From Euglena gracilis (taxonomy: Eukaryota), in the NCBI GenBank assembly GCA_039621445.1, contig CP154954.1, positions 35,759,703-35,823,702 of the forward strand: a DNA stretch of 64,000 nucleotides. The letters are read 5' to 3'. Within the stretch, counting starts at the first letter, position 1. Every line of letters starts with the position of its first letter. Shown here piece after piece: positions 4,001 to 37,836 of this stretch. Made by a program: the position numbers and the translations under genes. A model generated the notes under the pieces. That model saw only the letters and a list, made by a program, of their open reading frames with translations, had not been told where the DNA came from and did not search any database.

Positions 4001-4292
4001 TTTAGATGGGTGCATTCGACCATTCCGGGGGACATTAACCAGGCCAGCCCAGGTTACCATGTAAAAATGGACCAAATTGGGCCTTACTCCGAGTAACTGA
4101 ATGGGTGTTCCAGGAGGCCTCCAAGGTCAGGGGACCCGTTGGTTTCATGATTGTCGTGGTTTAATGGTAAGAAAAACATGCAGCCGGAAGGTTGGTTGCA
4201 AGAAATGAGCAGATTTAGATGGGTGCATTCGACCATTCCGGGGGACATTTACCAGGTCAGCCCAAGTTACCATGTAAAAATGGACCAAATTG
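1044..4292 (+). repeat. 213-bp tandem satellite, block 1 (about 15 monomers, one foreign insertion)
   Basis: Unit ...ttgcaagaaatgagcagatttagatgggtgcattcgaccattccgggggacatttaccaggtcagcccaggttaccatgtaaaaatggaccaaattgggcc... recurs with a 213-bp period; two monomers (near 3010 and 3415) share a ~21-bp deletion. Confidence 0.97.
3426..3635. other. 210-bp non-satellite insertion inside a satellite monomer
   Basis: Satellite ...gttaccatg|taaaaatgg... is interrupted by unrelated sequence containing a G-run; the flanks join perfectly if it is removed (possible TG duplication). Confidence 0.8.
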
Positions 4293-4298
4293 TGTAGG

Positions 4299-4310
4299 GC
4301 TCTGCTACCA
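4299..4310 (-). promoter_or_regulatory. PBS-like motif TGGTAGCAGAGC (complementary to the 3' end of eukaryotic initiator tRNA-Met)
   Basis: Plus strand gctctgctacca; on the minus strand it directly follows ...CCCCAACA. Confidence 0.65.
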
Positions 4311-5001
4311 TGTTGGGGTTGCCCCTCCTGAGGTCCCTGTGAAGGGACCCCTGGTGGCGCAACCCGCGTAGGATCGTTAAAATTTGAGCCCGTCCGGCCC
4401 ACAGGGTTTTCCCCTTGGTGAAAAAGTGGGGTAGGGGTTGGTGTTGGTGTAGGTGAAGCTGCAGAATTGAAAAAATACATACTTTTGGGGTCCACTCAAT
4501 TGAACTTGATTGAATAATCTGGTCAATGCCTTGGACTTGTTTGCTTGAACTTGTTTGATTGTTTGTTGATTGCCAAATGCAAAAACACAATTGAATGCCA
4601 AACAATGAACAGAGACACAGTATGTGAACAGAGTGTAAACAGAGCCCTGTGCAGAAAATGTGCAATTGTAGAGGGGCTCCAGCTGGGGGGGCTACTTGGT
4701 ATATTTTGCGCAATTCTTAAATGAATTGTGCCATCCCAAGCGTCCACCAAGGGGGTGCGCATGCTTGCACAAAGCCCTGCAGGGCTTGCGCATCCCCTTG
4801 GGGGTTGCCTGTTGGCCCCCTCAAACTGCCCCCTCCTTTACCTTCCCTTGGATTGCTCAAAATGGGCTGTGGGGCCCCTTTGGGGGCCAGTGGGACCTCA
4901 AAAGGCCCTTGGGGGCCTTGGAGCCCCCTTGCGGCCCTTCGTGGCCCCTTTGGGCCCCCTTGGGACCTCTCCTTGGGGCGGGCACCCTCGGACCGCGCAC
5001 A
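4311..5001 (-). repeat. Putative 3' LTR of family 1 (about 690 bp; alternative end at 4293)
   Basis: Minus strand begins TGTGCGCGG directly after the purine tract and ends ...CCCCAACA before the PBS-like motif; no second LTR copy in the window to confirm the boundaries. Confidence 0.6.
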
Positions 5002-5012
5002 CTCCCCTCCTC
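5002..5012 (-). promoter_or_regulatory. Polypurine tract (PPT) GAGGAGGGGAG
   Basis: Minus strand ttttctt-GAGGAGGGGAG-TGTG, downstream of pol and immediately before a TG terminus. Confidence 0.65.
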
Positions 5013-6437
5013 AAGAAAATTGCCGTGCAATTTAAATTCGACTCCTTTGCCGGTCCGAGGTGCCGTGCCCCCCCCCGACTATTTTGTATTTTTTTTGTTG
5101 ACGCCCCGTGGCCCTTCCTGTGTGTGCGCGTGCTCCATGGTGACAAAACAATCGTTGTGTTGTGTTTGGACGTGTCAACAGTGCTGGCTACGCGGGGCGG
5201 CAGGGGCGAGGGACAGGGTGGGGGCGGGAGTTGCCACAGGGAGGGGAGGGGGGGGGGGGGGCCCATCAAACGGCCTCGCCACGGGTCCGTGACCCGGGGA
5301 GGCACCGCTTGGGGCCGCTCCGCTCCCCTCCGCTCCCCTGGCCCGTGAGCCTTCTTGGCCCTGGGGTGGGGGGGGACTGCCCCCCCCCCCCGAAACACTC
5401 GATGCCAATGTGTAATTGTGATTCCCCCCCCAGGCCCCGCTTGGCCCTGGGTGGAAAACTCCTGCATGTTGGAAGGAACATTTGACCAACCCAGCAGGGC
5501 CGCCCCGCCTTGCCCGGTATCCCGGGGCCAAAGGCCCCGGGGCTTGGCGGGGTGCGTGCTGGGGGGGGCGCGGGGGAGGCGCCTTGAGTGGGGCCAGTTC
5601 CTTGGAGGAGGGGGCTGCCCCCCCCCCCCTGGGGGGGGTCGGGGCGGCCCCCCCCCCCGCGTTGTGGCCGGGCCGCCTTGGCGGGGCCCGTCCTCTTTGG
5701 GGGGGGCTGCCCCCCCCCGCTCTCCCGGTGTGGAGGGGGTTGGCGCTTGCCCCCCCCCCGTGGCTTCAAAAAATTGGCCGACGGGGTGTATTTTGTTTAA
5801 AAATTGGTGGAAAAGCGGCAGGCGCCCCCCCCTCCCCCGACATGGTGGGCCGAGGAGGTGTGTGGACGACCGCAAAAAAATCGGTCAAAAAAGGCAGGCG
5901 CCCCTCGGCGCGGTGGGCCGATGAGGGGGTAGCCAACCGTCAAACCGGGAAGAATTGGCAGGCGCCCCCCCCCTCGGCACGGTGGGCCGAAAGTGTGGGC
6001 CCAACCATCAAAAATGACAAAATGGGCAGGTGCCCCCCCCCCCGCCCAACTTGGCCCGGGCACCCCCACCGCCTAATGACAACGCAACACGAAAATGAAA
6101 TGGAGATCGACGACGAACACTTGAAGGGCTCAAAAAAAGGAAAAAAGAATAATGCACACCCGGGGGCTCGAGGCACCCGTTGGGCCTCCGTTCCCTGTGG
6201 GCCCTCGGGCCCGCAGGCGCCTGTGGACCCCCTGTGGGCCCCTCGGGCGCCGCACCGTGCGGTGTGGGCACGTGCGGCGCGTGGGGCGCCTCATCTCGTG
6301 GGCGCCTTGCCCCTCGGGCGTGTGTGGGGCCTTCGGGGTGCACGTGGCTGTGTGCTTGATTGGCCTGTTCGGCTCAGCGGGCGTCCCTCCAAGGTTTCCG
6401 CACACCAACCCATTTTCTGCCCCCCCCCCCCGGTGGG

Positions 6438-7007
6438 CTAGCCTCCACAGGTAAGCCGGCCCAGGCTACGTCTGGGTCGGGGGGGGGGAGGGGTCCTCAT
6501 CGGAGCCGGGCCACAAGGGCTCGAACTCCGCGAGGAGCAGTTGGAGCACCCCGCCGGGCTCCCCGACCTGGTCCCCTTCGGCGTCCTCGGCCTCGGGGTC
6601 CCCGGCCGTGCAGCCGCGGCGAGGAGGTCCAACGACCCCGACTCGCTTGCCTCCTCCTCGCTCCCCTGGTCGTCCCCTTCGTCCCCTTCGCGCCGCCTGC
6701 ACCTCATCCACCCGCGGTGCTCCCTCGCCCACCAACCCCCCACCACGCTCCGGAGGTGCTCCACCTCCGCCGCCAGCCCCTCGAGGTAGGCCAGCAGGGA
6801 GCGGAGGTCCTCCGGGCGTGTGGGGGGACGGTGGTCGGGGGGAGTCGGCCGGCTGGGGAGGTTCCGCGGGGGGTGTCCAGGCGGGGGCGCTTGGGGGCGG
6901 GCAAGAGGGTGAGGAGGGCGGCCTCCGCCTCGGCGGCCGATGGTGGCGGGGGGGCGACGGGGAAGAGGTCCAGGGACGTAGGGGCGACGGGGCACGTAGC
7001 GCTGCAT
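6438..7007 (-). CDS. Putative extra ORF downstream of pol (about 189 aa; Pro/Arg-rich, amphipathic helix, acidic patch), function unknown
   Basis: ATG lies 1 nt after the pol stop (TAG G ATG); contains EDLRSLLAYLEGLAAEVEHLRSVV and EGDEGDDQGSEEEASES. GC-rich DNA makes a chance ORF possible. Confidence 0.4.
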   Translation of the reverse strand: MQRYVPRRPYVPGPLPRRPPATIGRRGGGRPPHPLARPQAPPPGHPPRNLPSRPTPPDHRPPTRPEDLRSLLAYLEGLAAEVEHLRSVVGGWWAREHRGWMRCRRREGDEGDDQGSEEEASESGSLDLLAAAARPGTPRPRTPKGTRSGSPAGCSNCSSRSSSPCGPAPMRTPPPPRPRRSLGRLTCGG

Positions 7008-7008
7008 C

Positions 7009-9483
7009 CTACGCACAAGAGCGAAGGATGTGCGTGTGCTCCGTCACCACCACAATCCCCGCACCCGCCGTCCCCTCGCCTCCACCTCCTACCCCCCCCC
7101 CCTCTTTACCCCCTCCCCCCCCCCCCCCCCTTCCCGGGCGGGGAAGGCCCACCCCCCCCCACGGAATCCCCCTTGCTGCACAATAATCAACCACATCCTC
7201 ATTGTACGAGGGGAAGAAATCTGACCATGGCAGCCATTGGAGATCCGTCGGATCCCAATTTTTCCACCTCACCTGAAATTCCGGGACTCCCGTTTCCGGG
7301 TGGTTCCGGCTGCCCACAATCTCCTCCACCACCCACTCATCCGGTCCCACCTCCAGGGGGGCCGCCTTGTCATTGAAATAGAACAGTGGGAGGGGGTCGG
7401 TGGAGAACTCGTCCTCCGCGTGGAGCTTGAGTTGGCTCCGGTGTGTCTCTTGGCGGGCCCCTGGGGCCAGCTCCACCACATATGAGTGGCGACCCCGGCG
7501 GGCCACCACAGTCCCCCTTTTCCACTTGGTGGCCAACTTGTCCGTGCCCGGCTGTGTCTCGGGACGGTACCACACCTTGGCACCGACCTCCAGGGGAGGT
7601 GGGTCCCTTCTCTTGGCGTTGATGGAAGCCCACCGTTTGGCGTGCAAGGCATTCAAGGTTGAGGCCACCTTCTCGTCCATAGCCCGCATCCGTGCCATGA
7701 AGTTGGCTGCCCCCTCGGCCTCTCGTGGGGGCTGGTGGGGCAGGCCTTGGAGTGGCCGGTGCCGCCCGAAGACCACTTGGTAGGGCGACAAGCCGGACTC
7801 CCCTGGCACATCGTGCAGGTGCCGGAGGGCCTTGGGTAACAGCACCACCCATGAGGCCTCCTTCTCCGACAGGTCAGCGATGAGCTTGGACAGAGTGTTC
7901 ATCACCCGTTGGCCTGCCACCTCTGCCCGACCGTTGGCCTGGTGGTGGTAGGCCTGCCCGTAGGCGCGCCTCACCCCCATGGCGGCGCACATTGTTTGCC
8001 ACCAAGCCGAGGCAAAGTGGGGGCCACGGTCCGAGGTCACCACAGAGGGTACCCCGAACGTGTCCCAGTGGCGGAACATGGCCTTGGCCACCACCTCAGC
8101 TGCCAGGCCCTTGTACTTGTGAGGGGTGGCCACCGTCCACCCAGTCTCACGGTCCACGCACAGGGCCAGAAAATCATACACCTGGCCCTCGTGGGTCACC
8201 TCAGGCATGGCGAACAGGTCCACTGCCACACTGTCCATGAGGAACGGTGGCACAGGGGTGGCTTCGAGAGCACACTTGAAAGGTGCTCGAGAGGGGTCAC
8301 AGGCTTGGCAGATTTCACATTGCCGCTGGATGCCTTGGGTGATTTTCACAGCCCCCCTTGGATCCGCGAACCTGTACCACCGCCCCATCCGGTGCCATAG
8401 CCTTGAGGCACCTGAGTGGCCCGCGTCCCCATGGTGGGCCCGGACCACGAGCCCCATCAGGCTGGTGGGCACACGGAGGAGCCCGTCCGTGTACATTTTG
8501 TCCCCGTACAGACGGACCCCCTCAGGCCACTCTCCTGCAGGGGCCTGCACACTTGCATAAACAGGCCCCCACACAGGGCAATTTTCATATGCCCGTGACC
8601 AATCCCTGTCCATCACTGGGATGGAGGGATCCTCCTCCACCTCCTCCTGGGTGTGCACCCCCGTGTCTGGAGAAAGTGAAATTGGTTCCCCCACAGGTTC
8701 CCCGAGATCCCCCCGGTGAGGATCATCGATGGTGGGGGTCAGCTGCAGGTCCTCACTCAGAACTCTTCGCCCCGGTTGCTGATCCTCAGGTCCCCCCCTT
8801 CTTGCCGGCTGTCCATTATCGAATTCATCCACGAAAAGATGGGGACGTGGGGAACCTCGTGTCTCCCGCGTGTCCAACCCAGGTACCTCAGGCCCCTGCC
8901 CTCCCATGAGGATGGGACCCGAATCTCCCGAGGGGGCGTCCACAGGCCCCTCCCCCCCTGTGGGGTCAGGGCCAGGGCCCCCTGGCACTGAATCCTCAGC
9001 CCCCTCCCCCTCTGTGGGGCTGGGGCCAGGTCTGTGCTGTGCTGCTGTGTCTCTCCAACTGCGTGTTGTTACTGCCACGTGGAGTTCCTCCCCCCCGTGC
9101 GGTGTCCCGCATTCTCGCTCTTCCCTCCGTTCTTCTTCGATCATGGCCCTCATTGCCTCATCATTCTCCTCGCTCCCGTGGAGGCTGATTTCGGCAAATG
9201 CCTTGGAGGCAGGATATGCCCACCTGCTCAGGGCATCTGCCACCACGTTTTCCTTTCCCGGGATGTAGACCACGTGAAGGTCAAACCGGGAGAAAATTTC
9301 ATGCCAGCGTCCCCGCCTTCCCGCAGGTCCGCTGGGCGTGTCCAGGGTTTCCTTGGCCCAGGCCTCCAGGGACTTGTGGTCCGTGAGGACCAACACCGGC
9401 TGCAGGCCGATGTAGGAGGCCCATTTCTGGATGTCCAGGATGATGGCGTAGGTCTCCTTCTCTCGCGGAGACCAGCTTTTCAA
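7009..9483 (-). pseudogene. pol: Pol C-terminal part: RNase H end, long linker, integrase (HHCC, DDE, GPY/F-like) and chromodomain
   Basis: EKETYAII...LTDHKSL...ENVVADALSR (RNase H); HHGDAGH...CEICQAC; VAVDLF...TSDRGPHF...NGRAE; KLATKWKRG...HSYVVEL; WVVEEIVGSR...EFQVRWKNWDPTDLQWLP (chromodomain, about 7215-7340). Frameshifted from the RT part near 9485. Confidence 0.93.
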
Positions 9484-11345
9484 CCTGTCCAGCCGTGAGT
9501 TTTCGGGAGCAGAAGGCCACGGGCACGGTTTTCCGTGTGGTGGCCTCCACGGCTGTGGGAATCCCTACCGTTGGCTCCAAAAACTGTTCAAGGGCTGCCC
9601 CCACCGCCTTGTCGCTCGCATCAACCCGGAGAATGAATGGCTGGTCCGGGTTGATGGTGTGGAGCTCCAATCCCCGGAGGAGCTCCTGCTTCAGGGCGGT
9701 GAAGGCCTCCCGTTCCACTTGGCCGAATTTCACAGGTTTTTTGCTGCCTTTTTTCCCTTCCACACGTCCCACCTTGAGGAGTTCCATCAGGGGGGTTGCA
9801 CACCGGGCATACTCCTTCACGTAGCTGGAGTAGTAGTTGGTGAAGCCCAGAAAGCCCCTGAGGGTTGTGATCGTGAGGGGCTCCTCCCACTTCTCCAGCG
9901 CCATGAGTTTGCCCGGGGCTGGCCTCCGTTTTCCTCCCCCCAGGATGTGGCCACAGAACTCCACTTCTCTTACGAAGAAGCGGCACGTTTTTTTGTCCAC
10001 GACCAGGAGGTGTTCCCGCAGTGCCTCCAACACTCGCCTTATGTCCTGGTCGTGTGCCTCCAGGGTAGCTTCCTCTGTGCCACACCACTCGGTCCCCACG
10101 ATGATGCCGTCAACATATGGGTTGGCGACATCAGCCACATCCCTCAGCGAGTAGTCGATCACCCGCTGAAAAATGGCCACTCCATTTTTCAGGCCCATCA
10201 CGACCACACACCACTGCTTGGACCCTCGGGGGGTGCTGCAGCAGGTGTATGGGCGTGAGTCTTCGTGTAGGGGCACCTGATGGAAGGCATCCTTGAGATC
10301 AAGGACGGAGAACAGGTACCTCCGTCCTTGGTTCACCAGGATGTCTTCAATCCTGGGGAGGGGGTAAGCATCCGTCACTGTGGCCTCGTTTAATGCCCGA
10401 AATCCACAACCCCACGCCACCTCCCCTGTTTCTTGGCCACCACGAATGTGGGGCTGCTCCAGGCACTTGGCACCCCCTCCTCCACCTTCTTGTCCCGCAC
10501 CCACTCATCCACCAGGTCACACAAGGCCCTGTGCCTCTCCGCCGTCAGGTGGATGGGCCTCTGTTTCTTTGCCACAGATCCCGGTTTTAATTCGATTTTC
10601 CCTTCCCCCAGGGGCCCCCGAACGATTCCTTCCCCCCAAATCCTGTCTCGGAGAACCTCCCCCTCGAAGTCCCTCCGGAGGGCTGCCCGGAGCTCCTCAG
10701 CCCGCTGGCTGGTCACCTGTTCCCCTTCGGGAACAAGGATGACCCCTTGGGCTGCCCGTGCTTCGACCTCCCGGGCTGCCAGCAGGAGTTCCTTGGCCAC
10801 TGTCTCCTGGGTCGCCTCATCCTCGTGCAGGGGGTTTTCCTCCCACTCAGGCTCCTCGGTGTCCTCCCCCAGGGCTGCCTCTGGCAAAGCAAGCCGCAGT
10901 GCTCTGACTTTTTCCACCATTTTCAGGTATCTCACTCGCTTTTGTGCCTTTTTGTGGGCTGCTGGCTGAACTTGCTCACCCTCTGCATCATGTCCCCGAA
11001 GGAGGACCACCTGCTCTCCCCTCAATGCCAGGGCTCGGAGATGTGGAAACACCCCGAGCTGGTTTTCCTCCAGCCACGGAAAGCTGATGATGGTCTCCAC
11101 GTGGATGTCTGCCTCATAGAAGGAGGCTGGGGCCGTCCACAAGGCCCCTTCCCCCTGACCCAGGCCCCCCTCCCGCCGGAGGATCAGGCCCACGGTTGCC
11201 TCACGTTCCCCCCCTTCCATCTTGGCTCCACTAGCCGTCACCAGGGACAGGGGCTTGGGGGCAGGCAGGAGGTATGTGCTGGGTAGCATGCCTCTTCGGA
11301 CCAGGTTCACCTCTGCCCCTGTGTCAATGAGGGCGTTGATGAAGG
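9484..11345 (-). pseudogene. pol: Pol: aspartic protease, reverse transcriptase and RNase H start (mutated)
   Basis: NALIDTGAEVN; AWSSPTFVVAKK; YPLPRIED; LDLKDAFHQ; MGLKNG; YVDG (YVDD in the other copy); LRVDASD; frameshift near 10405. Confidence 0.93.
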
Positions 11346-11399
11346 TACCGCTCTGGCTCCGGAGACCCGGCAGCGTGGGCCTCCGGTGCCGGTGCTGTG

Positions 11400-12001
11400 G
11401 CCAGGTCACGGATGAGCGCCTCTGGGATCCGATATTTCAGGTGCCTGGGCAGGTTTTGGTGTTTGCTGCTGAGCCGAATTTTGTGCCGTCCCTTTCGTCA
11501 CCCCTCAGGTAGTGGGCTTTCCAGGTTGGTGCAGGTCCGGCCGTCACACACCCGTGGCCGGAGACCCAGGACATGGGGGCTGCCCCATATCCTGGTGGGC
11601 TTCTGGTAGCCCCAGTCAGCGTACTGGCAGTAATCCACGTCCACGTGTAGGATCCCTGCCATGTACCTGCGGGTCCGCAGGTAACCATACCGGGAGTTTT
11701 CCAGCCACCACCGCCGTGGGCGTAGGTATCTGATGATGGCCAGGGCCCGCTGCACCAGCCGATCAGCCAATTTAAAATCCCGTTCCCTGGTGGTCAGGGC
11801 CACGCTGAATTCGGTGCAGGGGACCCCGCACACCACCACCTCAAAATCCCCAGGCTGGAACTGTTTTTTAAAATTCCATTTCAGCACATCAACACAAATG
11901 TCTGGCCGCCACCTGGGGTCCACGTCCACCGACGTGACCTGGTAGCCCAGGCTGCGATAGACGTCCCCCACTGAACCTGTCCAGCAGAACAGGTCCAGCA
12001 T
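11400..12001 (-). pseudogene. C5-cytosine DNA methyltransferase domain, degenerate copy
   Basis: MLDLFCWTGSVG, VDVDP, CGVPCTEFS, WWLENSR, YQKPTRIWG; TGA stop at 11498 and about 100 bp missing before the protease relative to the plus copy. Confidence 0.85.
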
Positions 12002-12509
12002 CCGCCTGGGCTGGTCCGCTCTCCCCGCCTGCCCCAGGTGCGCCGGTTCGACATCCCCTGTGGCCCCCCCGGTCCCTGTGGATGGCCCTGAAAAATGTGT
12101 CCGGAACCTGGTTTTTTTCTCCCTCCCCCTTCGTGTCACCTCCTCCAGCGTGCACCGGTCTGGGTGCCCTCACAGCAAAAAGGCTGCGATGGGCCACTTG
12201 GTCCCTCGGCACAACTCCTCCCCTCTGCCGAAAAATCGTGTCCCCTGAGGGAACGTGACTTGGCGCACTGCCAAGCCCTCACAGGCATCAATCAGGGAGG
12301 CAGCAAGGGAGGTCATCAACGTTCCCCAAACCAGTAAGGGCACGGATGAAACCGCCCCCAGCACGGAAAGGGATTCAGGTTTTTCGATTCGCCAGGTGAG
12401 GTGCGTCAGGGCCGCACCTTCCACCTCAGCCCCCACACCACAGCCAGCCCCAGCACCACTCCCAGCCCGTTCCTCAGGGTTTGGGAGGTCTCCCTCCCGG
12501 TGGATCTCC

Positions 12510-12915
12510 CAGGACTACCACGTCCGGGAGGAGTACGTGAGGGACGTACTCCGCCGCCTGGGGGTCCAGCCGGAGGGCGACGCTTTTTCTGCACAAAGAA
12601 AACCGCAGGTTTGTCGGCTGGTGGGGGCCAGGGAGCAGGGAGGGAAAAGATGCCTTCAAACAGGACTGGGGCAGGGAGGCTTTGTGGATCAACCCACCTT
12701 ACAAAAAAATCCAGGAGGTTCTCGAAAAAATCAGGAGGGATCAGGCCCATGCCATCCTGGTGATCCCCAGGTGGCCGGGGCGGCGCTGGTACAGGGAGGC
12801 GAGGGGCTTGACAGTGAGCCAAGTCACGTTCCCTCAGGGGACACGATTTTTCGGCAGAGGGGAGGAGTTGTGCCGGGGGACCAAGTGGCCCATCACAGCC
12901 TTTTTGCTGTGCAGG
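12510..12915 (+). pseudogene. Dam-like DNA N6-adenine (amino) methyltransferase domain of the type found in phages and DIRS1 elements
   Basis: DYHV..EYVRDVLRRLGVQPEGDAFS [frameshift in A-run near 12600] NRRFVGWW...DAFKQDWGREALWINPPYKKIQEVLEKIRRDQAHAILVIPRWPGRRWY; NPPY at 12691-12702. Confidence 0.85.
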
Positions 12916-13080
12916 CACCCAGACCGGTGCACGCTGGAGGAGGTGACACGAAGGGGGAGGGAGAAAAAAACCAGGTTCGGGACACATTTTTCAGGGCCAC
13001 CCCATGGGACCGGGGGGGCCACAGGGGAGGTCAAGCCGGCACACCTGGGGCAGGTGGGGAGAGCGGACCAGCCCAGGCGG

Positions 13081-13690
13081 ATGCTGGACCTGTTCTGCGG
13101 GACAGGTTCAGTAGGGGACGTCAACCGCAGCCTGGGTTACCAGGTCACGTCGGTGGACGTGGACCCCAGGTGGCGGCCAGACATTTGTGTTGACGTGCTG
13201 AAATGGAATTTTAAAAAAGAGTTCCAGCCTGGGGATTTTGAGGTGGTGGTGTGCGGGGTCCCCTGCACCGAATTCAGCCTGGCCCTGACCACAAGGGAAC
13301 GAGATTTTAAATTGGCTGATCGGCTGGTGCAGCGGGCCCTGGCCATCATCAGATACCTCCGCCCACGGCGGTGGTGGCTGGAAAACCCCTGGTACGGGTA
13401 CCTGCGGACCCGCAGGTACATGGCAGGGATCCCACACGTGGACGTGGATTACTGCCAGTACGCTGACTGGGGCTACCAGAAGCCCACCAGGATATGTGGC
13501 AGCCCCCATGTCCTGGGTCTCCGGCCACGGGTGTGTGACGGCCGGACCTGCACCAACCTGGAAAGCCCAGTACCGGAGGGGGGACGAAAGGGTTGGCACA
13601 AAATTCGGCTCAGCAGCAAACACCAAAACCTGCCCAGGCACCAGAAATATCGGATCCCAGAGGCACTCATCCGGGACCTGGCCACAGCAC
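13081..13690 (+). CDS. C5-cytosine DNA methyltransferase domain within the polyprotein ORF 12682-14496
   Basis: Motif I LDLFCGTGS, motif II SVDVD, motif III DICVDV, motif IV CGVPCTEFS, motif VI WWLENP, motif VIII YQKPTRI, possible motif X KYRIPEALIRDL; in frame with the upstream NPPY domain and downstream protease. Confidence 0.9.
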
Positions 13691-13779
13691 CGGCACCGGA
13701 GGCCCACGCTGCCGACCCCCAGACAGAGCGAGGGGTGCCCTCGGTCTTGCTCCGTGAGGTGGGGCAGGGTGCCAGTGAA

Positions 13780-15697
13780 CGGCAGCTGCTGATGCGGGTG
13801 CAGGCCAGGGGGCCAGACGGACAGACCCACTTCATCAACGCCCTCATTGACACAGGGGCAGAGGTGAACCTGGTCCGAAGAGGCATGCTACCCAGCACAT
13901 ACCTCCTGCCTGCCCCCAAGCCCCTGTCCCTGGTGACGGCTAGTGGAGCCAAGATGGAAGGGGGGGAACGTGAGGCAACCCTGGGCCTGGTCCTCCGGCG
14001 GGAAGGTGGCCTGGGTCAGGGGGACGGGGCCCTGTGGACGGCCCCAGCCTCCTTCTATGAGGCAGACATCCACGTGGAGACCATCATCGGCTTTCCGTGG
14101 CTGGAGGAAAACCAGCTCGGGGTGTTTCCACATCTCCGAGCCTTGGCATTGAGGGGAGAGCCGGTGGTCCAGGTGAGCCAGGTGGTCCTCCTTCGGGGAC
14201 ATGATGTGGAGGGTGAGCAAGTTCAGCCAGCAGCCCACAAAAAGGCACAAAAGCGAGTGAGATACCTGAAAATGGTGGAAAAAGTCAGAGCACTGCGGCT
14301 TGCTTTGCCAGAGGCAGCCCTGGGGGAGGACACCGAGGAGCCTGAGTGGGAGGAAAACCCCCTGCACGAGGATGAGGCGACCCAGGAGACAGTGGCCAAA
14401 GGAACTCCTGCGGGCAGCCCGGGAGGTCGAAGCACGGGCAGCCCAAGGGGTCATCCTTGTTCCCGAAGGGGAACAGGTGACCAGCCAGCGGGCTGAGGAG
14501 CTCCGGGCAGCCCTCCGGAGGGACTTCGAGGGGGAGGTTCTCCGAGACAGGATTTGGGGGGAAGGAATCGTTCGGGGGCCCCTGGGGGAAGGGAAAATCG
14601 AATTAAAACCGGGATCCGTGGCGAAAAAACAGAGGCCCATCCACCTGACGGGGGAGAGGCACAGGGCACTGTGTGACCTGGTGGACGAGTGGGTTCGGGA
14701 CAAGAAGGTGGAGGAGGGGGTGCCAAGTGCCTGGAGCAGCCCCACATTTGTGGTGGCCAAGAAACAGGGGAAGTGGCGTGGGGTTGTGGACTTCCGGGCA
14801 TTAAACGAGGCCACAGTGACGGATGCTTACCCCCTCCCCAGGATCGAGGACATCCTGGTGAATCAGAGACGGAGGTACCTGTTCTCCGTCCTTGATCTCA
14901 AGGATGCCTTCCATCAGGTGCCCCAACACGAAGACTCACGCCCATACACCTGCTGCAGCACCCCCCGGGGGTCCAAGCAGTGGTGTGTGGTCGTGATGGG
15001 CCTGAAAAATGGAGTGGCCATTTTTCAGCGGGTGATCGACTACTCGCTGAGGGATGTGGCTGATGTCGCCAACCCATACGTTGACGACATCATCGTGGGG
15101 ACCGAGTGGTGTGGCACGGAGGAAGCTACCCTGGAGGCACACGACCAGGACATAAGGCGAGTGTTGGGGGCACTGCGGGAACACCGCCTGGTCGTGGACA
15201 AAAACAAGTGCCGCTTCTTCGTAAGAGAAGTGGAGTTCTGTGGCCACATCCTGGGGGGAGGAAAACGGAGGCCAGCCCCGGGCAAACTCATGGCGCTGGA
15301 GAAGTGGGAGGAGCCCCTCACGATCACAGCCCTCAGGGGCTTTCTGGGCTTCACCAACTACTACTCCAGCTACGTGAAGGAGTATGCCCGGTATGCAGCC
15401 CCCCTGATGGAACTCACGTGTGGAAGGGAAAAAAGGCAGCAAAAAACCTGTGAAATTCGGCCAAGTGGAACGGAGGCCTTCACCGCCCTGAAGCAGGAGC
15501 TCCTTCGGGGATTGGAGCTCCACACCATCAACCCGGACCAGCCATTCATTCTCCGGGTTGATGCGAGCGACAAGGCGGTGGGGGCAGCCCTTGAACAGTT
15601 TTTGGAGCCAACGGAGGGGATGCCCACAGCCGTGGAGGCCACCACACGGAAAACCGTGCCTGTGGCTTTCTGCTCCCGAAAACTCACAGCTGGGCAG
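13780..15697 (+). pseudogene. pol: Pol: aspartic protease, RT and truncated RNase H
   Basis: ALIDTGAEVN...IIGFPWL; +1 frameshift near 14400; KWRGVVDFRALN, LDLKDAFHQ, YVDD, FCGHIL, LRGFLGFTNYY, LRVDASDKAVGAAL, VPVAFCSRKL, then satellite. Confidence 0.93.
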
Positions 15698-18600
15698 GGG
15701 ACCCGTTGGTTTCATGATTGTCGTGGTTTAATGGTAAGAAAAACATGCAGCGGGGATGTTGGTTGCAAGAAATGAGCAGATTTAGATGGGTGCATTCGAC
15801 CATTCCGGGGGACATGTACCAGGCCAGCCCAGGTTACCATGTAAAAATGGACCAAATTGGGCCTTACTCCGAGTAACCGAATGGGTGTTCCAGCAGGCCT
15901 CCAAAGTCAGGGGACCCGTTGGTTTCATGATTGTCGTGGTTTAATGGTAAGAAAAACATGCAGCCGGAAGGTTGGTTGCAAGAAATGAGCAGATTTAGAT
16001 GGGTGCATTCGACCATTCCGGGGGACATTTACCAGGTCAGCCCAGGTTACCATGTAAAAATGGACCAAATTGGGCCTTACTCCGAGTAACCGAATGGGTG
16101 TTCCAGGAGGCCTCCAAAGTCAGGGGACCCGTTGGTTTCATGATTGTCGTGGTTTAATGGTAAGAAAAACATGCAGCCGGAAGGTTGGTTGCAAGAAATG
16201 AGCAGATTTAGATGGGTGCATTCGACCATTCCGGGGGACATTTACCAGGTCAGCCCAGGTTACCATGTAAAAATGGACCAAATTGGGCCTTACTCCGAGT
16301 AACCGAATGGGTGTTCCAGGAGGCCTCCAAAGTCAGGGGACCCGTTGGTTTCATGATTGTCGTGGTTTAATGGTAAGAAAAACATGCAGCCGGAAGGTTG
16401 GTTGCAAGAAATGAGCATTATGGGTGCATTCGACCATTCCGGGGGACATTTACCAGGTCAGCCCAGGTTACCATGTAAAAATGGACCAAATTGGGCCTTA
16501 CTCCGAGTAACCGAATGGGTGTTCCAGGAGGCCTCCAAAGTCAGGGGACCCGTTGGTTTCATGATTGTCGTGGTTTAATGGTAAGAAAAACATGCAGCCG
16601 GAAGGTTGGTTGCAAGAAATGAGCAGATTTAGATGGGTGCATTCGACCATTCCGGGGGACATTTACCAGGTCAGCCCAGGTTACCATGTAAAAATGGACC
16701 AAATTGGGCCTTACTCCGAGTAACCGAATGGGTGTTCCAGGAGGCCTCCAAAGTCAGGGGACCCGTTGGTTTCATGATTGTCGTGGTTTAATGGTAAGAA
16801 AAACATGCAGCCGGAAGGTTGGTTGCAAGAAATGAGCATATTTAGATGGGTGCATTCGACCATTCCGGGGGACATTTACCAGGTCAGCCCAGGTTACCAT
16901 GTAAAAATGGACCAAATTGGGCCTTACTCCGAGTAACCGAATGGGTGTTCCAGGAGGCCTCCAAAGTCAGGGGACCCGTTGGTTTCATGATTGTCGTGGT
17001 TTAATGGTAAGAAAAACATGCAGCCGGAAGGTTGGTTGCAAGAAATGAGCAGATTTAGATGGGTGCATTCGACCATTTCGGGGGACATTTACCAGGTCAG
17101 CCCAGGTTACCATGTAAAAATGGACCAAATTGGGCCTTACTCCGAGTAACCGAATGGGTGTTCCAGGAGGCCTCCAAAGTCAGGGGACCCGTTGGTTTCA
17201 TGATTGTCGTGGTTTAATGGTAAGAAAAACATGCAGCCGGAAGGTTGGTTGCAAGAAATGAGCATATTTAGATGGGTGCATTCGACCATTCCGGGGGACA
17301 TTTACCAGGTCAGCCCAGGTTACCATGTAAAAATGGACCAAATTGGGCCTTACTCCGAGTAACCGAATGGGTGTTCCAGGAGGCCTCCAAAGTCAGGGGA
17401 CCCGTTGGTTTCATGATTGTCGTGGTTTAATGGTAAGAAAAACATGCAGCCGGAAGGTTGGTTGCAAGAAATGAGCAGATTTAGATGGGTGCATTCGACC
17501 ATTCCGGGGGACATTTACCAGGTCAGCCCAGGTTACCATGTAAAAATGGACCAAATTGGGCCTTACTCCGAGTAACCGAATGGGTGTTCCAGGAGGCCTC
17601 CAAAGTCAGGGGACCCGTTGGTTTCATGATTGTCGTGGTTTAATGGTAAGAAAAACATGCAGCCGGAAGGTTGGTTGCAAGAAATGAGCAGATTTAGATG
17701 GGTGCATTCGACCATTCCGGGGGACATTTACCAGGTCAGCCCAGGTTACCATGTAAAAATGGACCAAATTGGGCCTTACTCCGAGTAACCGAATGGGTGT
17801 TCCAGGAGGCCTCCAAAGTCGGGGGACTCGTTGGTTTCATGATTGTCGTGGTTTAATGGTAAGAAAAACATGCAGCCGGAAGGTTGGTTGCAAGAAATGA
17901 GCACATTTAGATGGGTGCATTCGACCATTCCGGGGGACATTTACCAGGTCAGCCCAGGTTACCATGTAAAAATGGACCAAATTGGGCCTTACTCCGAGTA
18001 ACCGAATGGGTGTTCCAGGAGGCCTCCAAAGTCAGGGGACCCGTTGGTTTCATGATTGTCGTGGTTTAATGGTAAGAAAAACATGCAACCGGAAGGTTGG
18101 TTGCAAGAAATGAGCATATTTAGATGGGTGCATTCGACCATTCCGGGGGACATTTACCAGGTCAGCCCAGGTTACCATGTAAAAATGGACCAAATTGGGC
18201 CTTACTCCGAGTAACCGAATGGGTGTTCCAGGAGGCCTCCAAAGTCAGGGGACCCGTTGGTTTCATGATTGTCGTGGTTTAATGGTAAGAAAAACATGCA
18301 GCCGGAAGGTTGGTTGCAAGAAATGAGCAGATTTAGATGGGTGCATTCGACCATTCCGGGGGACATTTACCAGGTCAGCCCAGGTTACCATGTAAAAATG
18401 GACCAAATTGGGCCTTACTCCGAGTAACCGAATGGGTGTTCCAGGAGGCCTCCAAAGTCAGGGGACTCGTTGGTTCATTGATTGTCGTGGTTTAATGGTA
18501 AGAAAAACATGCAGCCGGAAGGTTGGTTGCAAGAAATGAGCAGATTTAGATGGGTGCATTCGACCATTCCGGGGGACATTTACCAGGTCAGCCCAGGTTA

Positions 18601-21600
18601 CCATGTAAAAATGGACCAAATTGGGCCTTACTCCGAGTAACCGAATGGGTGTTCCAGGAGGCCTCCAAAGTCAGGGGACCCGTTGGTTTCATGATTGTCG
18701 TGGTTTAATGGTAAGAAAAACATGCAGCCGGAAGGTTGGTTGCAAGAAATGAGCAGATTTAGATGGGTGCATTCGACCATTCCGGGGGACATTTACCAGG
18801 TCAGCCCAGGTTACCATGTAAAAATGGACCAAATTGGGCCTTACTCCGAGTAACCGAATGGGTGTTCCAGGAGGCCTCCAAAGTCAGGGGACCCGTTGGT
18901 TTCATGATTGTCGTGGTTTAATGGTAAGAAAAACATGCAGCCGGAAGGTTGGTTGCAAGAAATGAGCAGATTTAGATGGGTGCATTCGACCATTCCGGGG
19001 GACATTTACCAGGTCAGCCCAGGTTACCATGTAAAAATGGACCAAATTGGGCCTTACTCCGAGTAACCGAATGGGTGTTCCAGGAGGCCTCCAAAGTCAG
19101 GGGACCGTTGGTTTCATGATTGTCGTGGTTTAATGGTAAGAAAAACATGCAGCCGGAAGGTTGGTTGCAAGAAATGAGCACTTTTAGATGGGTGCATTCG
19201 ACCATTCCGGGGGACATTTACCAGGTCAGCCCAGGTTACCATGTAAAAATGGACCAAATTGGGCCTTACTCCGAGTAACCGAATGGGTGTTCCAGGAGGC
19301 CTCCAAAGTCAGGGGACCCGTTGGTTTCATGATTGTCGTGGTTTAATGGTAAGAAAAACATGATCCGGAAGGTTGGTTGCAAGAAACGAGCAGATTTAGA
19401 TGGGTGCATTCGACCATTCCGGGGGACATTTACCAGGTCAGCCCAGGTTACCATGTAAAAATGGACCAAATTGGGCCTTACTCCGAGTAACCGAATGGGT
19501 GTTCCAGGAGGCCTCCAAAGTCAGGGGACCCGTTGGTTTCATGATTGTCGTGGTTTAATGGTAAGAAAAACATGCAGCCGGAAGGTTGGTTGCAAGAAAT
19601 GAGCAGATTTAGATGGGTGCATTCGACCATTCCGGGGGACATTTACCAGGTCATCCCAGGTTACCATGTAAAAATGGACCAAATTGGGCCTTACTCCGAG
19701 TAACCGAATGGGTGTTCCAGGAGGCCTCCAAAGTCAGGGGACCCGTTGGTTTCATGATTGTCGTGGTTTAATGGTAAGAAAAACATGCATCCGGAAGGTT
19801 GGTTGCAAGAAATGAGCAGATTTAGATGGGTGCATTCGACCATTCCAGGGGACATTTACCAGGTCATCCCAGGTTACCATGTAAAAATGGACCAAATTGG
19901 GCCTTACTCCGAGTAGATTTAGATGGGTACATTCGACCATTCCGGGGGACATTTACCAGGTCAGCCCAGGTTACCATGTAAAAATGGACCAAATTGGGCC
20001 TTACTCCGAGTAACCGAATGGGTGTTCCAGGAGGCCTCCAAAGTCAGGGGACCCGTTGGTTTCATGATTGTCGTGGTTTCATGGTAAGAAAAACATGCAG
20101 CCGGAAGGTTGGTTGCAAGAAATGAGCACATTTAGATGGGTGCATTCGACCATTCCGGGGGACATTTACCAGGTCAGCCCAGGTTACCATGTAAAAATGG
20201 ACCAAATTGGGCCTTACTCCGAGTAACCGAATGGGTGTTCCAGGAGGCCTCCAAAGTCAGGGGACCCGTTGGTTTCATGATTGTCGTGGTTTAATGGTAA
20301 GAAAAACATGCAGCCGGAAGGTTGGTTGCAAGAAATGAGCAGATTTAGATGGGTGCATTCGACCATTCCGGGGGACATTTACCAGGTCAGCCCAGGTTAC
20401 CATGTAAAAATGGACCAAATTGGGCCTTACTCCGAGTAACCGAATGGGTGTTCCAGGAGGCCTCCAAAGTCAGGGGACCCGTTGGTTTCATGATTGTCGT
20501 GGTTTAATGGTAAGAAAAACATGCAGCCGGTAGGTTGGTTGCAAGAAATGAGCACATTTAGATGGGTGCATTCGACCATTCCGGGGGACATTTACCAGGT
20601 CAGCCCAGGTTACCATATAAAAATGGACCAAATTGGGCCTTACTCCGAGTAACCGAATGGGTGTTCCAGGAGGCCTCCAAAGTCAGGGGACCCGTTGGTT
20701 TCATGATTGTCGTGGTTTAATGGTAAGAAAAACATGCAGCGGGAATGCTGGTTGCAAGAAATGAGCACATTTAGATGGGTGCATTCGACCATTCCGGGGG
20801 ACATTTACCAGGTCAGCCCAGGTTACCATGTAAAAATGGACCAAATTGGGCCTTACTCCCAGTAACCGAATGGGTGTTCCAGGAGGCCTCCAAAGTCAGG
20901 GGACCCGTTGGTTTCATGATTGTCGTGGTTTAATGGTAAGCAAAACATGCAGCCGGTAGGTTCGTTGCAAGAAATGAGCAGATTTAGATGGGTGCATTCG
21001 ACCATTCCGGGGGACATTTACCAGGTCAGCCCAGGTTACCATATAAAAATGGACCAAATTGGGCCTTACTCCGAGTAACCGAATGGGTGTTCCAGGAGGC
21101 CTCCAAAGTCAGGGGACCCGTTGGTTTCATGATTTTCGTGGTTTAATGGTAAGAAAAACATGCAGCCGGTAGGTTGGTTGCAAGAAATGAGCAGATTTAG
21201 ATGGGTGCATTCGACCATTCCGGGGACATTTACCAGGTCAGCCCAGGTTACCATATAAAAATGGACCAAATTGGGCCTTACTCCGAGTAACCGAATGGGT
21301 GTTCCAGGAGGCCTCCAAAGTCAGGGGACCCGTTGGTTTCATGATTTTCGTGGTTTAATGGTAAGAAAAACATGCAGCCGGAAGGTTGGTTGCAAGAAAT
21401 GAGCACATTTAGATGGGTGCATTCGACCATTCCGGGGGACATTTACCAGGTCAGCCCAGGTTACCATGTAAAAATGGACCAAATTGGGCCTTACTCCCAG
21501 TAACCGAATGGGTGTTCCAGGAGGCCTCCAAAGTCAGGGGACCCGTTCGGTTTCATGATTGTCGTGGTTTAATGGTAAGAAAAACATGCAGCCGGTAGGT

Positions 21601-24600
21601 TGGTTGCAAGAAATGAGCAGATTTAGATGGGTGCATTCGACCATTCCGGGGGACATTTACCAGGTCAGCCCAGGTTACCATATAAAAATGGACCAAATTG
21701 GGCCTTACTCCGAGTAACCGAATGGGTGTTCCAGGAGGCCTCCAAAGTCAGGGGACCCGTTGGTTTCATGATTGTCGTGGTTTAATGGTAAGAAAAACAT
21801 GCAGCGGGAATGTTGGTTGCAAGAAATGAGCACATTTAGATGGGTGCATTCGACCATTCCGGGGGACATTTACCAGGTCAGCCCAGGTTACCATATAAAA
21901 ATGGACCAAATTGGGCCTTACTCCGAGTAACCGAATGGGTGTTCCAGGAGGCCTCCAAAGTCAGGGGACCCGTTGGTTTCATGATTGTCGTGGTTTAATG
22001 GTAAGAAAAACATGCAGCCGGAAGGTTGGTTGCAAGAAATGAGCACATTTAGATGGGTGCATTCGACCATTCCGGGGGACATTTACCAGGTCAGCCCAGG
22101 TTACCATGTAAAAATGGACCAAATTGGGCCTTACTCCGAGTAACCGAATGGGTGTTCCAGGAGGCCTCCAAAGTCAGGGGACCCGTTGGTTTCATGATTG
22201 TCGTGGTTTAATGGTAAGAAAAACATGCACCCGGTAGGTTGGTTGCAAGAAATGAGCACATTTAGATGGGTGCATTCGACCATTCCGGGGGACATTTACC
22301 AGGTCAGCCCAGGTTACCATGTAAAAATGGACCAAATTGGGCCTTACTCCGAGTAACCGAATGGGTGTTCCAGGAGGCCTCCAAAGTCAGGGGACCCGTT
22401 GGTTTCATGATTGTCGTGGTTTAATGGTAAGAAAAACATGCAGCCGGAAGGTTGGTTGCAAGAAATGAGCACATTTAGATGGGTGCATTCGACCATTCCG
22501 GGGGACATTTACCAGGTCAGCCCAGGTTACCATATAAAAATGGACCAAATTGGGCCTTACTCCGAGTAACCGAATGGGTGTTCCAGGAGGCCTCCAAAGT
22601 CAGGGGACCCGTTGGTTTCATGATTGTCGTGGTTTAATGGTAAGAAAAAAATGCAGCGGGAATGTTGGTTGCAAGAAATGAGCACATTTAGATGGGTGCA
22701 TTCGACCATTCCGGGGGACATTTACCAGGTCAGCCCAGGTTACCATGTAAAAATGGACCAAATTGGGCCTTACTCCGAGTAACCGAATGGGTGTTCCAGG
22801 AGGCCTCCAAAGTCAGGGGACCCGTTGGTTTCATGATTGTCGTGGTTTAATGGTAAGAAAAACATGCAGCCGGAAGGTTGGTTGCAAGAAATGAGCACAT
22901 TTAGATGGGTGCATTCGACCATTCCGGGGGACATTTACCAGGTCAGCCCAGGTTACCATGTAAAAATGGACCAAATTGGGCCTTACTCCGAGTAACCGAA
23001 TGGGTGTTCCAGGAGGCCTCCAAAGTCAGGGGACCCGTTGGTTTCATGATTGTCGTGGTTTAATGGTAAGAAAAAAAATGCAGCGGGAATGTTGGTTGCA
23101 AGAAATGAGCACATTTAGATGGGTGCATTCGACCATTCCGGGGGACATTTACCAGGTCAGCCCAGGTTACCATGTAAAAATGGACCAAATTGGGCCTTAC
23201 TCCGAGTAACCGAATGGGTGTTCCAGGAGGCCTCCAAAGTCAGGGGACCCGTTGGTTTCATGATTGTCGTGGTTTAATGGTAAGAAAAACATGCAGCCGG
23301 AAGGTTGGTTGCAAGAAATGAGCAGATTTAGATGGGTGCATTCGACCATTCCGGGGGACATTTACCAGGTCAGCCCAGGTTACCATATAAAAATGGACCA
23401 AATTGGGCCTTACTCCGAGTAACCGAATGGGTGTTCCAGGAGGCCTCCAAAGTCAGGGGACCCGTTGGTTTCATGATTGTCGTGGTTTAATGGTAAGAAA
23501 AACATGCAGCCGGAAGGTTGGTTGCAAGAAATGAGCACATTTAGATGGGTGCATTCGACCATTCCGGGGGACATTTACCAGGTCAGCCCAGGTTACCATA
23601 TAAAAATGGACCAAATTGGGCCTTACTCCGAGTAACCGAATGGGTGTTCCAGGAGGCCTCCAAAGTCAGGGGACCCGTTGGTTTCATGATTGTCGTGGTT
23701 TAATGGTAAGAAAAAACATGCAGCCGGAAGGTTGGTTGCAAGAAATGAGCACATTTAGATGGGTGCATTCGACCATTCCGGGGGACATTTACCAGGTCAG
23801 CCCAGGTTACCATGTAAAAATGGACCAAATTGGGCCTTACTCCGAGTAACCGAATGGGTGTTCCAGGAGGCCTCCAAAGTCAGGGGACCCGTTGGTTTCA
23901 TGATTGTCGTGGTTTAATGGTAAGAAAAAAATGCAGCCGGAAGGTTGGTTGCAAGAAATGAGCACATTTAGATGGGTGCATTCGACCATTCCGGGGGACA
24001 TTTACCAGGTCAGCCCAGGTTACCATGTAAAAATGGACCAAATTGGGCCTTACTCCGAGTAACCGAATGGGTGTTCCAGGAGGCCTCCAAAGTCAGGGGA
24101 CCCGTTGGTTTCATGATTGTCGTGGTTTAATGGTAAGAAAAAAATGCAGCCGGAAGGTTGGTTGCAAGAAATGAGCACATTTAGATGGGTGCATTCGACC
24201 ATTCCGGGGGACATTTACCAGGTCAGCCCAGGTTACCATGTAAAAATGGACCAAATTGGGCCTTACTCCGAGTAACCGAATGGGTGTTCCAGGAGGCCTC
24301 CAAAGTCAGGGGACCCGTTGGTTTCATGATTGTCGTGGTTTAATGGTAAGAAAAAAATGCAGCGGGAATGTTGGTTGCAAGAAATGAGCACATTTAGATG
24401 GGTGCATTCGACCATTCCGGGGGACATTTACCAGGTCAGCCCAGGTTACCATGTAAAAATGGACCAAATTGGGCCTTACTCCGAGTAACCGAATGGGTGT
24501 TCCAGGAGGCCTCCAAAGTCAGGGGACCCGTTGGTTTCATGATTGTCGTGGTTTAATGGTAAGAAAAACATGCAGCCGGAAGGTTGGTTGCAAGAAATGA

Positions 24601-37817: not shown

Positions 37818-37819
37818 CT

Positions 37820-37836
37820 TGGTAGCAGATTTGGTT
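37820..37836 (+). promoter_or_regulatory. Primer-binding site, tRNA-iMet type (TGGTAGCAGATTTGGTT)
   Basis: 2 nt after the CA terminus; conserved in copy B. Confidence 0.75.

What the first reader, a model, noticed from the sequence alone, without database searches (positions are those of the whole stretch)
12510..14150. Gypsy retrotransposon with two DNA methyltransferases in tandem (Dam-like N6-adenine plus C5-cytosine) fused ahead of its protease
Seen: one reading frame (12682-14496) carries WINPPY...ILVIPRWP..RWY, then LDLFCGTGS/GVPCTEFS/WLENP/QKPTR, then LIDTGA, followed by Gypsy RT-RH; the sister copy supplies IN and a chromodomain. Established: NPPY is the amino-methyltransferase motif IV and this Dam-like domain is typical of phages and DIRS1 tyrosine-recombinase elements; C5-MTases captured by retrotransposons have been reported in dinoflagellates and charophyte algae. 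Inference: both enzyme classes together in the Pol of a DDE-integrase element is an architecture I do not know as described. It could mark its own cDNA or target site with both 6mA (or 4mC) and 5mC. Both catalytic motifs are intact in this copy.
Basis: partly seen in the sequence, partly recalled or inferred. Interest (0 to 1): 0.93.

Follow-up and report, generated by a model that had tools for sequence, protein, structure and literature searches.

The report
Jumping gene carrying two methylating enzymes
This is a broken copy of an abundant retrotransposon that carries both an adenine-type and a cytosine-type methylating enzyme, a combination already reported in a 2026 preprint, though its cytosine enzyme appears to come from DNA viruses of eukaryotes and its relatives arrange the same parts in every possible order.

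Summary
The domains are real. An amino-methyltransferase (NPPY), a C5-cytosine methyltransferase and a protease precede Ty3/Gypsy RT-RH, and an inverted sister copy supplies integrase and chromodomain. Both copies are broken and sit in a 213-bp satellite. It is not a one-off chimera: 45 of 279 fetched proteins hold both methyltransferases. It is not undescribed either: a May 2026 preprint names such elements EpiLTRs (Euglena gracilis, Cymbomonas), and an E. gracilis protein falls in the same RT clade. The host of this window was not determined. Three points are not in the preprint's text. (1) Relatives show all six orders of Dam, DNMT and protease; in a 17-protein test the order tracks RT lineage. 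(2) The DNMT is a ~205-aa enzyme with an invariant Cys/His cluster, nested among virophage and giant-virus methyltransferases; DNMT4, the preprint's proposed sister group, could not be tested. (3) The 'Dam' fold matches the RNA-cap enzyme PCIF1 best, so its substrate may be RNA. Likeliest mechanism (inferred): protease-released modules act in the particle, and the DNMT puts CpG methylation on new cDNA. Verdict: new member of a known kind; interest 0.45.

The parts
12504..12912 (+). Dam-like / PCIF1-clade amino-methyltransferase domain; N-terminal third in a different frame from the NPPY part (frame break near 12600)
   Evidence: fold of intact relative P0009
13075..13692 (+). short C5-cytosine DNA methyltransferase (motifs I, IV PC, VI ENP; Cys-Cys-Cys-His cluster)
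13777..14145 (+). aspartic protease (DTG at 13849)
14642..15256 (+). Ty3/Gypsy reverse transcriptase, in a different frame from PR (break near 14400)
15467..15694 (+). RNase H, N-terminal half, cut off by satellite
12284..12503 (+). upstream polyprotein linker; the copy is cut at its 5' end at an inversion junction near 12283
11390..12280 (-). sister copy: tail of Dam (12176-12280) and DNMT (11390-12007, in-frame stop); about 95-96% identical to the plus copy
9283..11355 (-). sister copy PR, RT, RH (frame breaks near 10400 and 9480)
7177..8454 (-). sister copy DDE integrase (7738-8454) and chromodomain (7177-7347)
4293..7100 (-). 3' region of the sister copy: G-rich tract after the chromodomain, then an LTR-like end (...TACACA) abutting the satellite
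   Evidence: higher summed contig depth at 4494-5281
1041..4292 (.). 213-bp satellite array, left flank
15695..37400 (.). 213-bp satellite array, right flank (about 100 units)

Best explanation
Two decayed, 5'-cut copies of a high-copy Ty3/Gypsy chromovirus-like retrotransposon of the EpiLTR kind, joined head to head inside a 213-bp satellite of a eukaryote (probably a euglenid; inferred). Shown: Pol order Dam-DNMT-PR-RT-RH-IN-chromodomain; conserved catalytic residues across divergent relatives; lineage-specific module order. Inferred: the protease cuts Pol so that each methyltransferase works as a free module inside the particle, which is why its slot in Pol does not matter. The virus-type DNMT then methylates CpG on new cDNA de novo, as vertebrate iridovirus methyltransferases do on viral DNA, so the insert arrives carrying the host's default mCG mark. 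The chromodomain integrase delivers it to heterochromatin such as this satellite. The Dam-like module adds an N6-adenine mark to a replication intermediate (cDNA, RNA-DNA hybrid or RNA); its substrate is the weakest step. Confidence: identity as an EpiLTR-type element about 0.9; the whole mechanism about 0.5.
For: Domains. Family trait: 5 long relatives among 1323 candidates, one (P0004, 1896 aa) with PR-Dam-DNMT-RT-RH-IN-chromo in one frame; 45 of 279 proteins hold both enzymes, 22 of them with RT. Contigs from 3 of the 4 runs laid cross from the Dam part into the DNMT (X1 12782-13160 with 49 differences, X12 12613-13301, X16 12666-13145), and summed depth in X1 is of one order over Dam, DNMT, RT and IN. 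Catalytic conservation: NPP[FWYH] in 39 of 43 Dam domains; catalytic Cys in 37 of 37 and motif VI Glu in 36 of 37 element-context DNMTs. pN/pS between the two window copies: DNMT 0.35 (13 nonsynonymous, 12 synonymous), PR 0.36, RT 0.21. All six orders of Dam, DNMT and PR occur, plus slots after RH. Order maps on an RT tree with the minimum 5 changes; 0 of 1000 shuffles were as low (17 rows). E. gracilis protein P0202 (Dam-PR-RT-RH-IN-chromo) lies in the same 54-row RT clade, SH-aLRT 95. Host CpG methylation is indicated by C/T differences at 19 of 253 CpG versus 30 of 1368 other C sites, p 5.5e-5. Iridovirus DNMTs methylate CpG of viral DNA (PMC11627377, PMC10899263, passages).
Against: No activity was measured. 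The preprint saw no 6mA gain from eukaryotic Dam domains in E. coli and low LTR expression in E. gracilis. Iyer et al. call DIRS1-type N6A domains likely inactive (PMC4738411, passage). The Dam tail plus linker shows no constraint between the two copies (pN/pS 1.15; 10 nonsynonymous, 3 synonymous). Many relatives in the RT clade show only one or no methyltransferase, although many are cut at the N-terminus. CpG decay can come from host enzymes alone. Protease cleavage sites were not tested. Gag and a 5' LTR are missing in the window. CpG specificity is borrowed from relatives at about 33% identity.
Confidence: 0.55

Rival explanations
1. The 'Dam' module is an RNA enzyme or binder, like PCIF1: it methylates or binds the cap or an adenosine of the element's genomic RNA or primer. 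The element would then be a one-DNA-mark, one-RNA-mark system rather than a dual DNA methylator.
For: The Dam part of the P0009 model (residues 17-171) has zebrafish PCIF1/CAPAM as its best match among 48,161 chains (Z 10.9, 138 aligned, rmsd 3.0), and human CAPAM is first in Foldseek (E 1.4e-4). Iyer et al. place DIRS1 methyltransferases in the PCIF1 clade. The E. coli DNA assay was negative. The preprint's main text never mentions PCIF1.
Against: Profile hits are to phage DNA methyltransferases (phrog_111 E 2.5e-8; Pfam Dam up to E 4.2e-8 in P0004). The preprint reports more 6mA on DAM-LTR insertions and a prokaryotic origin. The two-domain model filled both fold lists with DNMT matches, so the Dam part was thinly tested. 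A shared fold shows no substrate.
Confidence: 0.3
2. The enzymes act after integration on chromatin: the DNMT silences the new copy or competing elements, and the Dam domain seeds 6mA that host AMT1 maintains to keep copies transcribed (the preprint's model).
For: [quoted passage not shown] The chromodomain gives chromatin targeting.
Against: No chromatin-reading domain is fused to either enzyme, and their slots in Pol vary freely. E. gracilis LTR expression is low. These copies lie in a satellite and show CpG decay.
Confidence: 0.25
3. One-off nested chimera or assembly artefact joining unrelated pieces.
For: The locus is rearranged (inversion junction, satellite truncation, frame breaks). 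The preprint itself warns of nested insertions or assembly artefacts in Euglena.
Against: The same Dam-DNMT-PR order is in single open frames of P0002 (Logan) and P0008 (JGI) at about 41-53% identity. Contigs of three other runs cross the Dam-DNMT link. Order follows RT phylogeny.
Confidence: 0.03

Closest known systems
EpiLTR of Euglena gracilis (bioRxiv 10.64898/2026.05.21.726589; whole main text read; figures and supplements not seen)
   Same: Ty3/Gypsy LTR element with Dam, DNMT and chromodomain. An E. gracilis DAM-LTR protein (P0202) is 49-57% identical over RT-RH and in the same RT clade.
   Different: The text gives no domain order for Euglena. P0202 groups with DNMT-Dam-PR elements, whereas this one is Dam-DNMT-PR in another subclade. 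The text places the DNMT sister to DNMT4 and mentions no iridovirus, virophage, PCIF1, protease or satellite.
EpiLTR of Cymbomonas tetramitiformis (same preprint)
   Same: Dam + DNMT + chromodomain in a chromovirus-like Pol.
   Different: DNMT is appended to the 3' end of pol there; here it precedes the protease.
KnitGypsy-Dnmt3, SymbioDIRS-Dnmt3, SymbioLINE-Dnmt (PMC5890265, passages)
   Same: C5 methyltransferase inside a retrotransposon polyprotein under purifying selection.
   Different: KnitGypsy and SymbioDIRS carry DNMT3-type enzymes; none is described there with a Dam domain. The enzyme here is a ~205-aa virus-type one.
DIRS1 tyrosine-recombinase elements with N6A-MTase; PCIF1 clade (PMC4738411, passages)
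   Same: Same Dam-like domain with NPP motif; PCIF1 fold.
   Different: This element has a DDE integrase, protease and chromodomain; no tyrosine recombinase was seen.
Short C5 methyltransferases of eukaryotic dsDNA viruses (Tetraselmis virus 1 A0A2P0VN45; lymphocystis disease virus Q6JLA2; virophage and giant-virus contigs)
   Same: About 200-230 aa, same motifs, invariant Cys-Cys-Cys plus near-invariant His; up to 42% identity over the whole domain.
   Different: Stand-alone genes in viruses; here a module of a retrotransposon Pol.

Membership tests
EpiLTR (DAM-LTR with DNMT and chromodomain) | Ty3/Gypsy Pol with RT-RH-IN order and DDE integrase | tested here: met
   (minus copy RT-RH-IN-chromo)
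EpiLTR (DAM-LTR with DNMT and chromodomain) | Dam-like N6-adenine methyltransferase domain with NPP motif in Pol | tested here: met
   broken by a frame change in this copy
EpiLTR (DAM-LTR with DNMT and chromodomain) | C5 DNMT domain in Pol | tested here: met
EpiLTR (DAM-LTR with DNMT and chromodomain) | chromodomain | tested here: met
   Pfam Chromo E 9.6e-5, 22.7 bits, under the 25.1 cut-off; family profile E 6.9e-7; in the sister copy only
EpiLTR (DAM-LTR with DNMT and chromodomain) | paired LTRs and Gag | tested here: inconclusive
   one LTR-like end at 4293; both copies are cut at the 5' end; no whole genome held
Euglena DAM-LTR lineage | RT groups with E. gracilis DAM-LTRs | tested here: met
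   54-row clade, SH-aLRT 95, holds the window RT and P0202; one named reference only, quick tree
Euglena DAM-LTR lineage | DNMT in the clade reported as sister to DNMT4 | not testable with these tools
   no DNMT4 or published EpiLTR DNMT sequences were in hand; supplements closed
Cymbomonas-type EpiLTR | DNMT at the 3' end of pol | tested here: not met
   DNMT precedes PR in both copies
DIRS1 elements | tyrosine recombinase instead of protease and DDE integrase | tested here: not met
   PR and rve present; no recombinase family hit in the 8 frames of the two copies scanned
short virus-type C5 methyltransferases | ~200-aa core with shared invariant Cys cluster and phylogenetic grouping | tested here: met
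   three non-catalytic Cys in 75 of 75 IMG/VR rows, 19 of 19 phage-type rows and 36-37 of 37 element rows; element clade 99/99 nested in viral rows
short virus-type C5 methyltransferases | de novo CpG methylation activity | not testable with these tools
   needs an assay
PCIF1 clade amino-methyltransferases | PCIF1-type fold | tested here: met
   best match for the Dam part of relative P0009 in two searches; Z 10.9 is moderate
PCIF1 clade amino-methyltransferases | cap-adjacent adenosine methylation | not testable with these tools
   needs an assay

The most novel reading that the evidence does not exclude
One chromovirus lineage captured, once, the compact C5 methyltransferase of eukaryotic dsDNA viruses (the virophage / giant-virus / iridovirus family with a probable Cys3His zinc site), not a host DNMT4-like gene. 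It paired this with a PCIF1-like enzyme that may act on RNA, and then shuffled the two enzymes and the protease through all six orders and into post-RNase H slots without losing catalytic residues. The particle would be a small self-marking factory that writes viral-style CpG methylation on its cDNA.
Probability: 0.45. Interest if true: 0.7.

Novelty: new member of a known kind. Interest (0 to 1): 0.45.

Why it matters
The headline architecture is already in a preprint, so this is not a discovery of the kind. The additions make its open questions testable. A virus-type minimal DNMT predicts de novo CpG methylation of cDNA and gives one of the smallest C5 enzymes to assay. A PCIF1-like fold offers a reason for the failed E. 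coli DNA assay and points to RNA or hybrid substrates. Free permutation of enzyme modules around the protease is unusual for LTR Pol proteins (own knowledge) and argues that they work as released subunits.

Tried and rejected
Plain PDB sequence search with the two domains gave nothing below E 0.66; the profile gave weak DNMT1 hits only (best E 3.5e-4). A search for longer relatives with the Dam piece alone found 0 of 158 candidates (weak evidence). The metagenome scan returned 17 loci and none held an RT; all hit with the DNMT profile alone. The prokaryotic genome scan gave 3 weak loci of 88 candidate stretches (26% over the full domain; 43% over 41 residues). ESM Atlas: the DNMT's nearest clusters were viral by the few members with taxa; the Pol fragment gave scores under 0.9, leads only. 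Rfam: 0 matches in the window. The Dam tree was poorly resolved, with long branches, and was not used for origin claims. No listed contig spans DNMT core to PR core; that link rests on the two window copies, P0002 and P0008. RNA-labelled runs that hold the sequence are guesses and may be DNA, so transcription is not claimed. The host could not be named: run labels are coded, and papers gave no satellite sequence. Literature searches for prior description; 'EpiLTR' occurs in 1 paper.
Full report
Setting. The window is eukaryotic repeat DNA: a 213-bp satellite (1041-4292, 15695-37400, 46286-46572, 49208-51292, 60676-64000) broken by LTR retrotransposon pieces. The finding lies in an 11.4-kb block (4293-15694) made of two copies of one element, joined head to head near 12283 and about 95-96% identical. 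No genome is held and the host was not determined.

The observation. The frame 12541-14496 carries all motifs listed. Pfam hits are weak and under cut-off (Dam E 4.8e-4, DNA_methylase 0.016, RVP 0.068). PHROGs gives E 2.5e-8 and 5.7e-10. A confident model of the second domain (pLDDT 94.8) ranks C5 DNA methyltransferases and DNMT2 in its first 15 rows. Family profiles place Dam at 12504-12912, DNMT at 13075-13692, PR at 13777-14145, RT at 14642-15256 and a cut RH at 15467-15694. On the minus strand they place Dam tail, DNMT, PR, RT, RH, IN (7738-8454) and chromodomain (7177-7347). The copy is dead: the first third of Dam is in another frame, the frame changes again before RT, and the satellite cuts RH. 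The sister copy lacks most of Dam and has a stop in the DNMT region.

Not a one-off. A search for longer relatives gave 5 proteins of 1323 candidates; P0004 holds PR-Dam-DNMT-RT-RH-IN-chromodomain in one 1896-aa frame. The full-library search found 3593 proteins at E 0.001 or less and 163 at 1e-30 or less; I saw the best 150. An RT-RH search found 222 of 7999 scored; I saw the best 120. Among all 279 proteins then held, 45 have both methyltransferases, 22 of these with RT and 7 with a chromodomain (two of the 7 are cluster-mates). Of 24 runs listed, 20 hold part of the stretch. In the 4 runs laid, 68,669 contigs of run X1 mapped to the stretch (satellite ends included), summed depth was of one order over Dam, DNMT, RT and IN, and contigs of 3 runs cross from Dam into DNMT (depth is no copy number).

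What is known. bioRxiv 10.64898/2026.05.21.726589 (whole main text; figures and supplements not seen) describes DAM-LTRs and names the Dam+DNMT+chromodomain ones EpiLTRs, in Cymbomonas (DNMT at the 3' end of pol) and Euglena gracilis (order not given in the text). The only protist-named protein among my hits is E. gracilis EP00667_P000113 (P0202; Dam-PR-RT-RH-IN-chromo). It is 49-57% identical to the window over RT-RH and shares a 54-row clade with it in a 111-row quick tree (SH-aLRT 95). Two other hits are labelled Genlisea aurea; I take them as probable contaminants of that assembly (inference). So the element is an EpiLTR of the Euglena-type lineage, and a euglenid host is likely but not shown. 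PMC5890265 (passages) and PMC6338049 (passages) cover earlier single-enzyme cases.

Addition 1: module permutation. Of 27 proteins with Dam, DNMT and PR together, the orders are Dam-DNMT-PR 3 (window, P0002, P0008), PR-Dam-DNMT 7, DNMT-Dam-PR 6, Dam-PR-DNMT 6, DNMT-PR-Dam 2, PR-DNMT-Dam 2, and 1 with Dam after RH. Among the 130 RT-bearing proteins, Dam follows RH in 9 and DNMT in 6. On an RT-RH tree of the 17 rows that had all three modules plus a usable RT and RH, the order needs the minimum of 5 changes, and 0 of 1000 shuffles were as low. Three groups there are single rows and near-copies inflate clustering; the orders PR-DNMT-Dam and DNMT-PR-Dam were not in that tree. A protease tree splits PR-before-DNMT (9 rows) from the other 13, of which 12 are DNMT-before-PR (SH-aLRT 99). 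The orders are therefore heritable, not misassembly. The words protease and 'domain order' do not occur in the preprint's main text.

Addition 2: where the DNMT comes from. With the family profile, 238 of 597 matched stretches in viral contigs encode relatives; the best 80 were kept, up to 42% identity over the whole domain. Neighbours include an NCLDV capsid (L027), a virophage capsid (L092), an AEP-D5 primase (L049) and ribonucleotide reductase (L028). Most of 115 neighbour genes from 32 loci had no Pfam hit, so most contigs stay unclassified. Fold search of viral proteins puts the Tetraselmis virus 1 cytosine methyltransferase first (E 8.5e-22, TM 0.81, 32%) and lists the lymphocystis virus enzyme (33% over 96 columns). 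Phage-type relatives are at 24-38%. In a 208-row FastTree and a 76-row IQ-TREE subsample (25 of 35 element rows, 30 of 75 viral, 8 of 19 phage-type, 13 unassigned), element DNMTs form one clade (99/99) inside the viral rows when rooted on the phage-type group. Three non-catalytic cysteines are invariant in viral and phage-type rows and in 36-37 of 37 element rows; a histidine is in 37 of 37 element and 73 of 75 viral rows. I read this as a probable zinc site (inference). Limits: the viral set was found with this family's own patterns, the root is assumed, and no DNMT4 was in the tree, so the preprint's 'sister to DNMT4' is not excluded. PMC12344493 (passages) calls DNMT4 fungal and notes orphan DNMTs of viral source. 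Vertebrate iridovirus DNMTs methylate CpG in viral DNA, in the cytoplasm for FV3 (PMC11627377, PMC10899263, passages).

Addition 3: the 'Dam' domain. In a model of intact relative P0009 (domain pLDDT mostly 84-95), residues 17-171 match PCIF1/CAPAM best (Z 10.9; Foldseek E 1.4e-4). This agrees with Iyer et al., who put DIRS1 methyltransferases in the PCIF1 clade and thought them inactive (PMC4738411, passages). Here NPP[FWYH] is kept in 39 of 43 domains, which argues for catalysis. The preprint's E. coli DNA assay was negative. The substrate is open.

Mechanism. Shown: anatomy, conserved catalytic residues, constraint on the DNMT between the two copies (pN/pS 0.35, small counts; Dam tail plus linker 1.15, against), CpG-biased decay (19 of 253 versus 30 of 1368, p 5.5e-5), and LTR-like ends abutting the satellite. 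Inferred: Pol is cut by its protease, the enzymes are packaged with RT and IN, the DNMT writes mCG on new cDNA so that it matches a CpG-methylated host, and the chromodomain steers integration to heterochromatin. The adenine enzyme marks cDNA, hybrid or RNA. Rivals are an RNA-directed PCIF1-like role, action on chromatin after insertion, and artefact (nearly excluded).

Verdict. Observation confirmed; interpretation partly supported; new member of a known kind; interest 0.45. The boldest reading not excluded (viral-origin minimal CpG methylase, a possibly RNA-directed partner, free permutation around the protease) has probability about 0.45 and would deserve 0.7. Supplements of the preprint, which I could not see, may already show some of the orders or viral sequences in its DNMT tree.

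Noticed in passing
window 46573-49207 (+): A second, distant Gypsy with PR tail, a Dam-like domain (HPPP in place of NPPY) and RT-RH but no DNMT, cut by satellite on both sides; a DAM-only LTR element whose nearest relative is P0264.
   Followed up: partly
window 37401-42330 (+) and 51293-60675 (-): Two related elements start with the same LTR-like end (TGTGTACCAGGC) directly against the satellite and carry long Gag-like frames (38014-41328; 56538-58967 with a CCHC knuckle, plus 59013-60191), about 71% identical in part; they share pieces with the DAM-only element.
   Followed up: partly
window 42535-46291: 125 copies of a 30-bp repeat (95% matches) that runs into the 213-bp satellite and resembles part of its unit; possibly derived from it.
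   Followed up: no
window 1041-64000, satellite blocks: The 213-bp satellite is highly homogeneous (97-98% in the main array), switches strand at 60676 and is very abundant in run X1; chromodomain elements nested in it suggest centromeric or other heterochromatin.
   Followed up: partly
window 6438-7043 (-): A 201-aa proline/arginine-rich frame in the 3' region after the chromodomain, no Pfam hit; this stretch has lower contig depth than the rest of the element.
   Followed up: no
P0017, P0260: Two family members with Dam-PR-DNMT order are annotated in the Genlisea aurea assembly, probably from a protist contaminant; P0260 has two DNMT domains.
   Followed up: no
L031: A viral contig with both a short DNMT of this family and a separate small Dam-like ORF (profile score 28.7), a possible source pairing.
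   Followed up: no
L002-L026: Phage-type relatives, several from gut metagenomes, mostly carry D instead of P before the catalytic Cys (18 of 19 distinct rows) yet keep the three-Cys cluster.
   Followed up: partly
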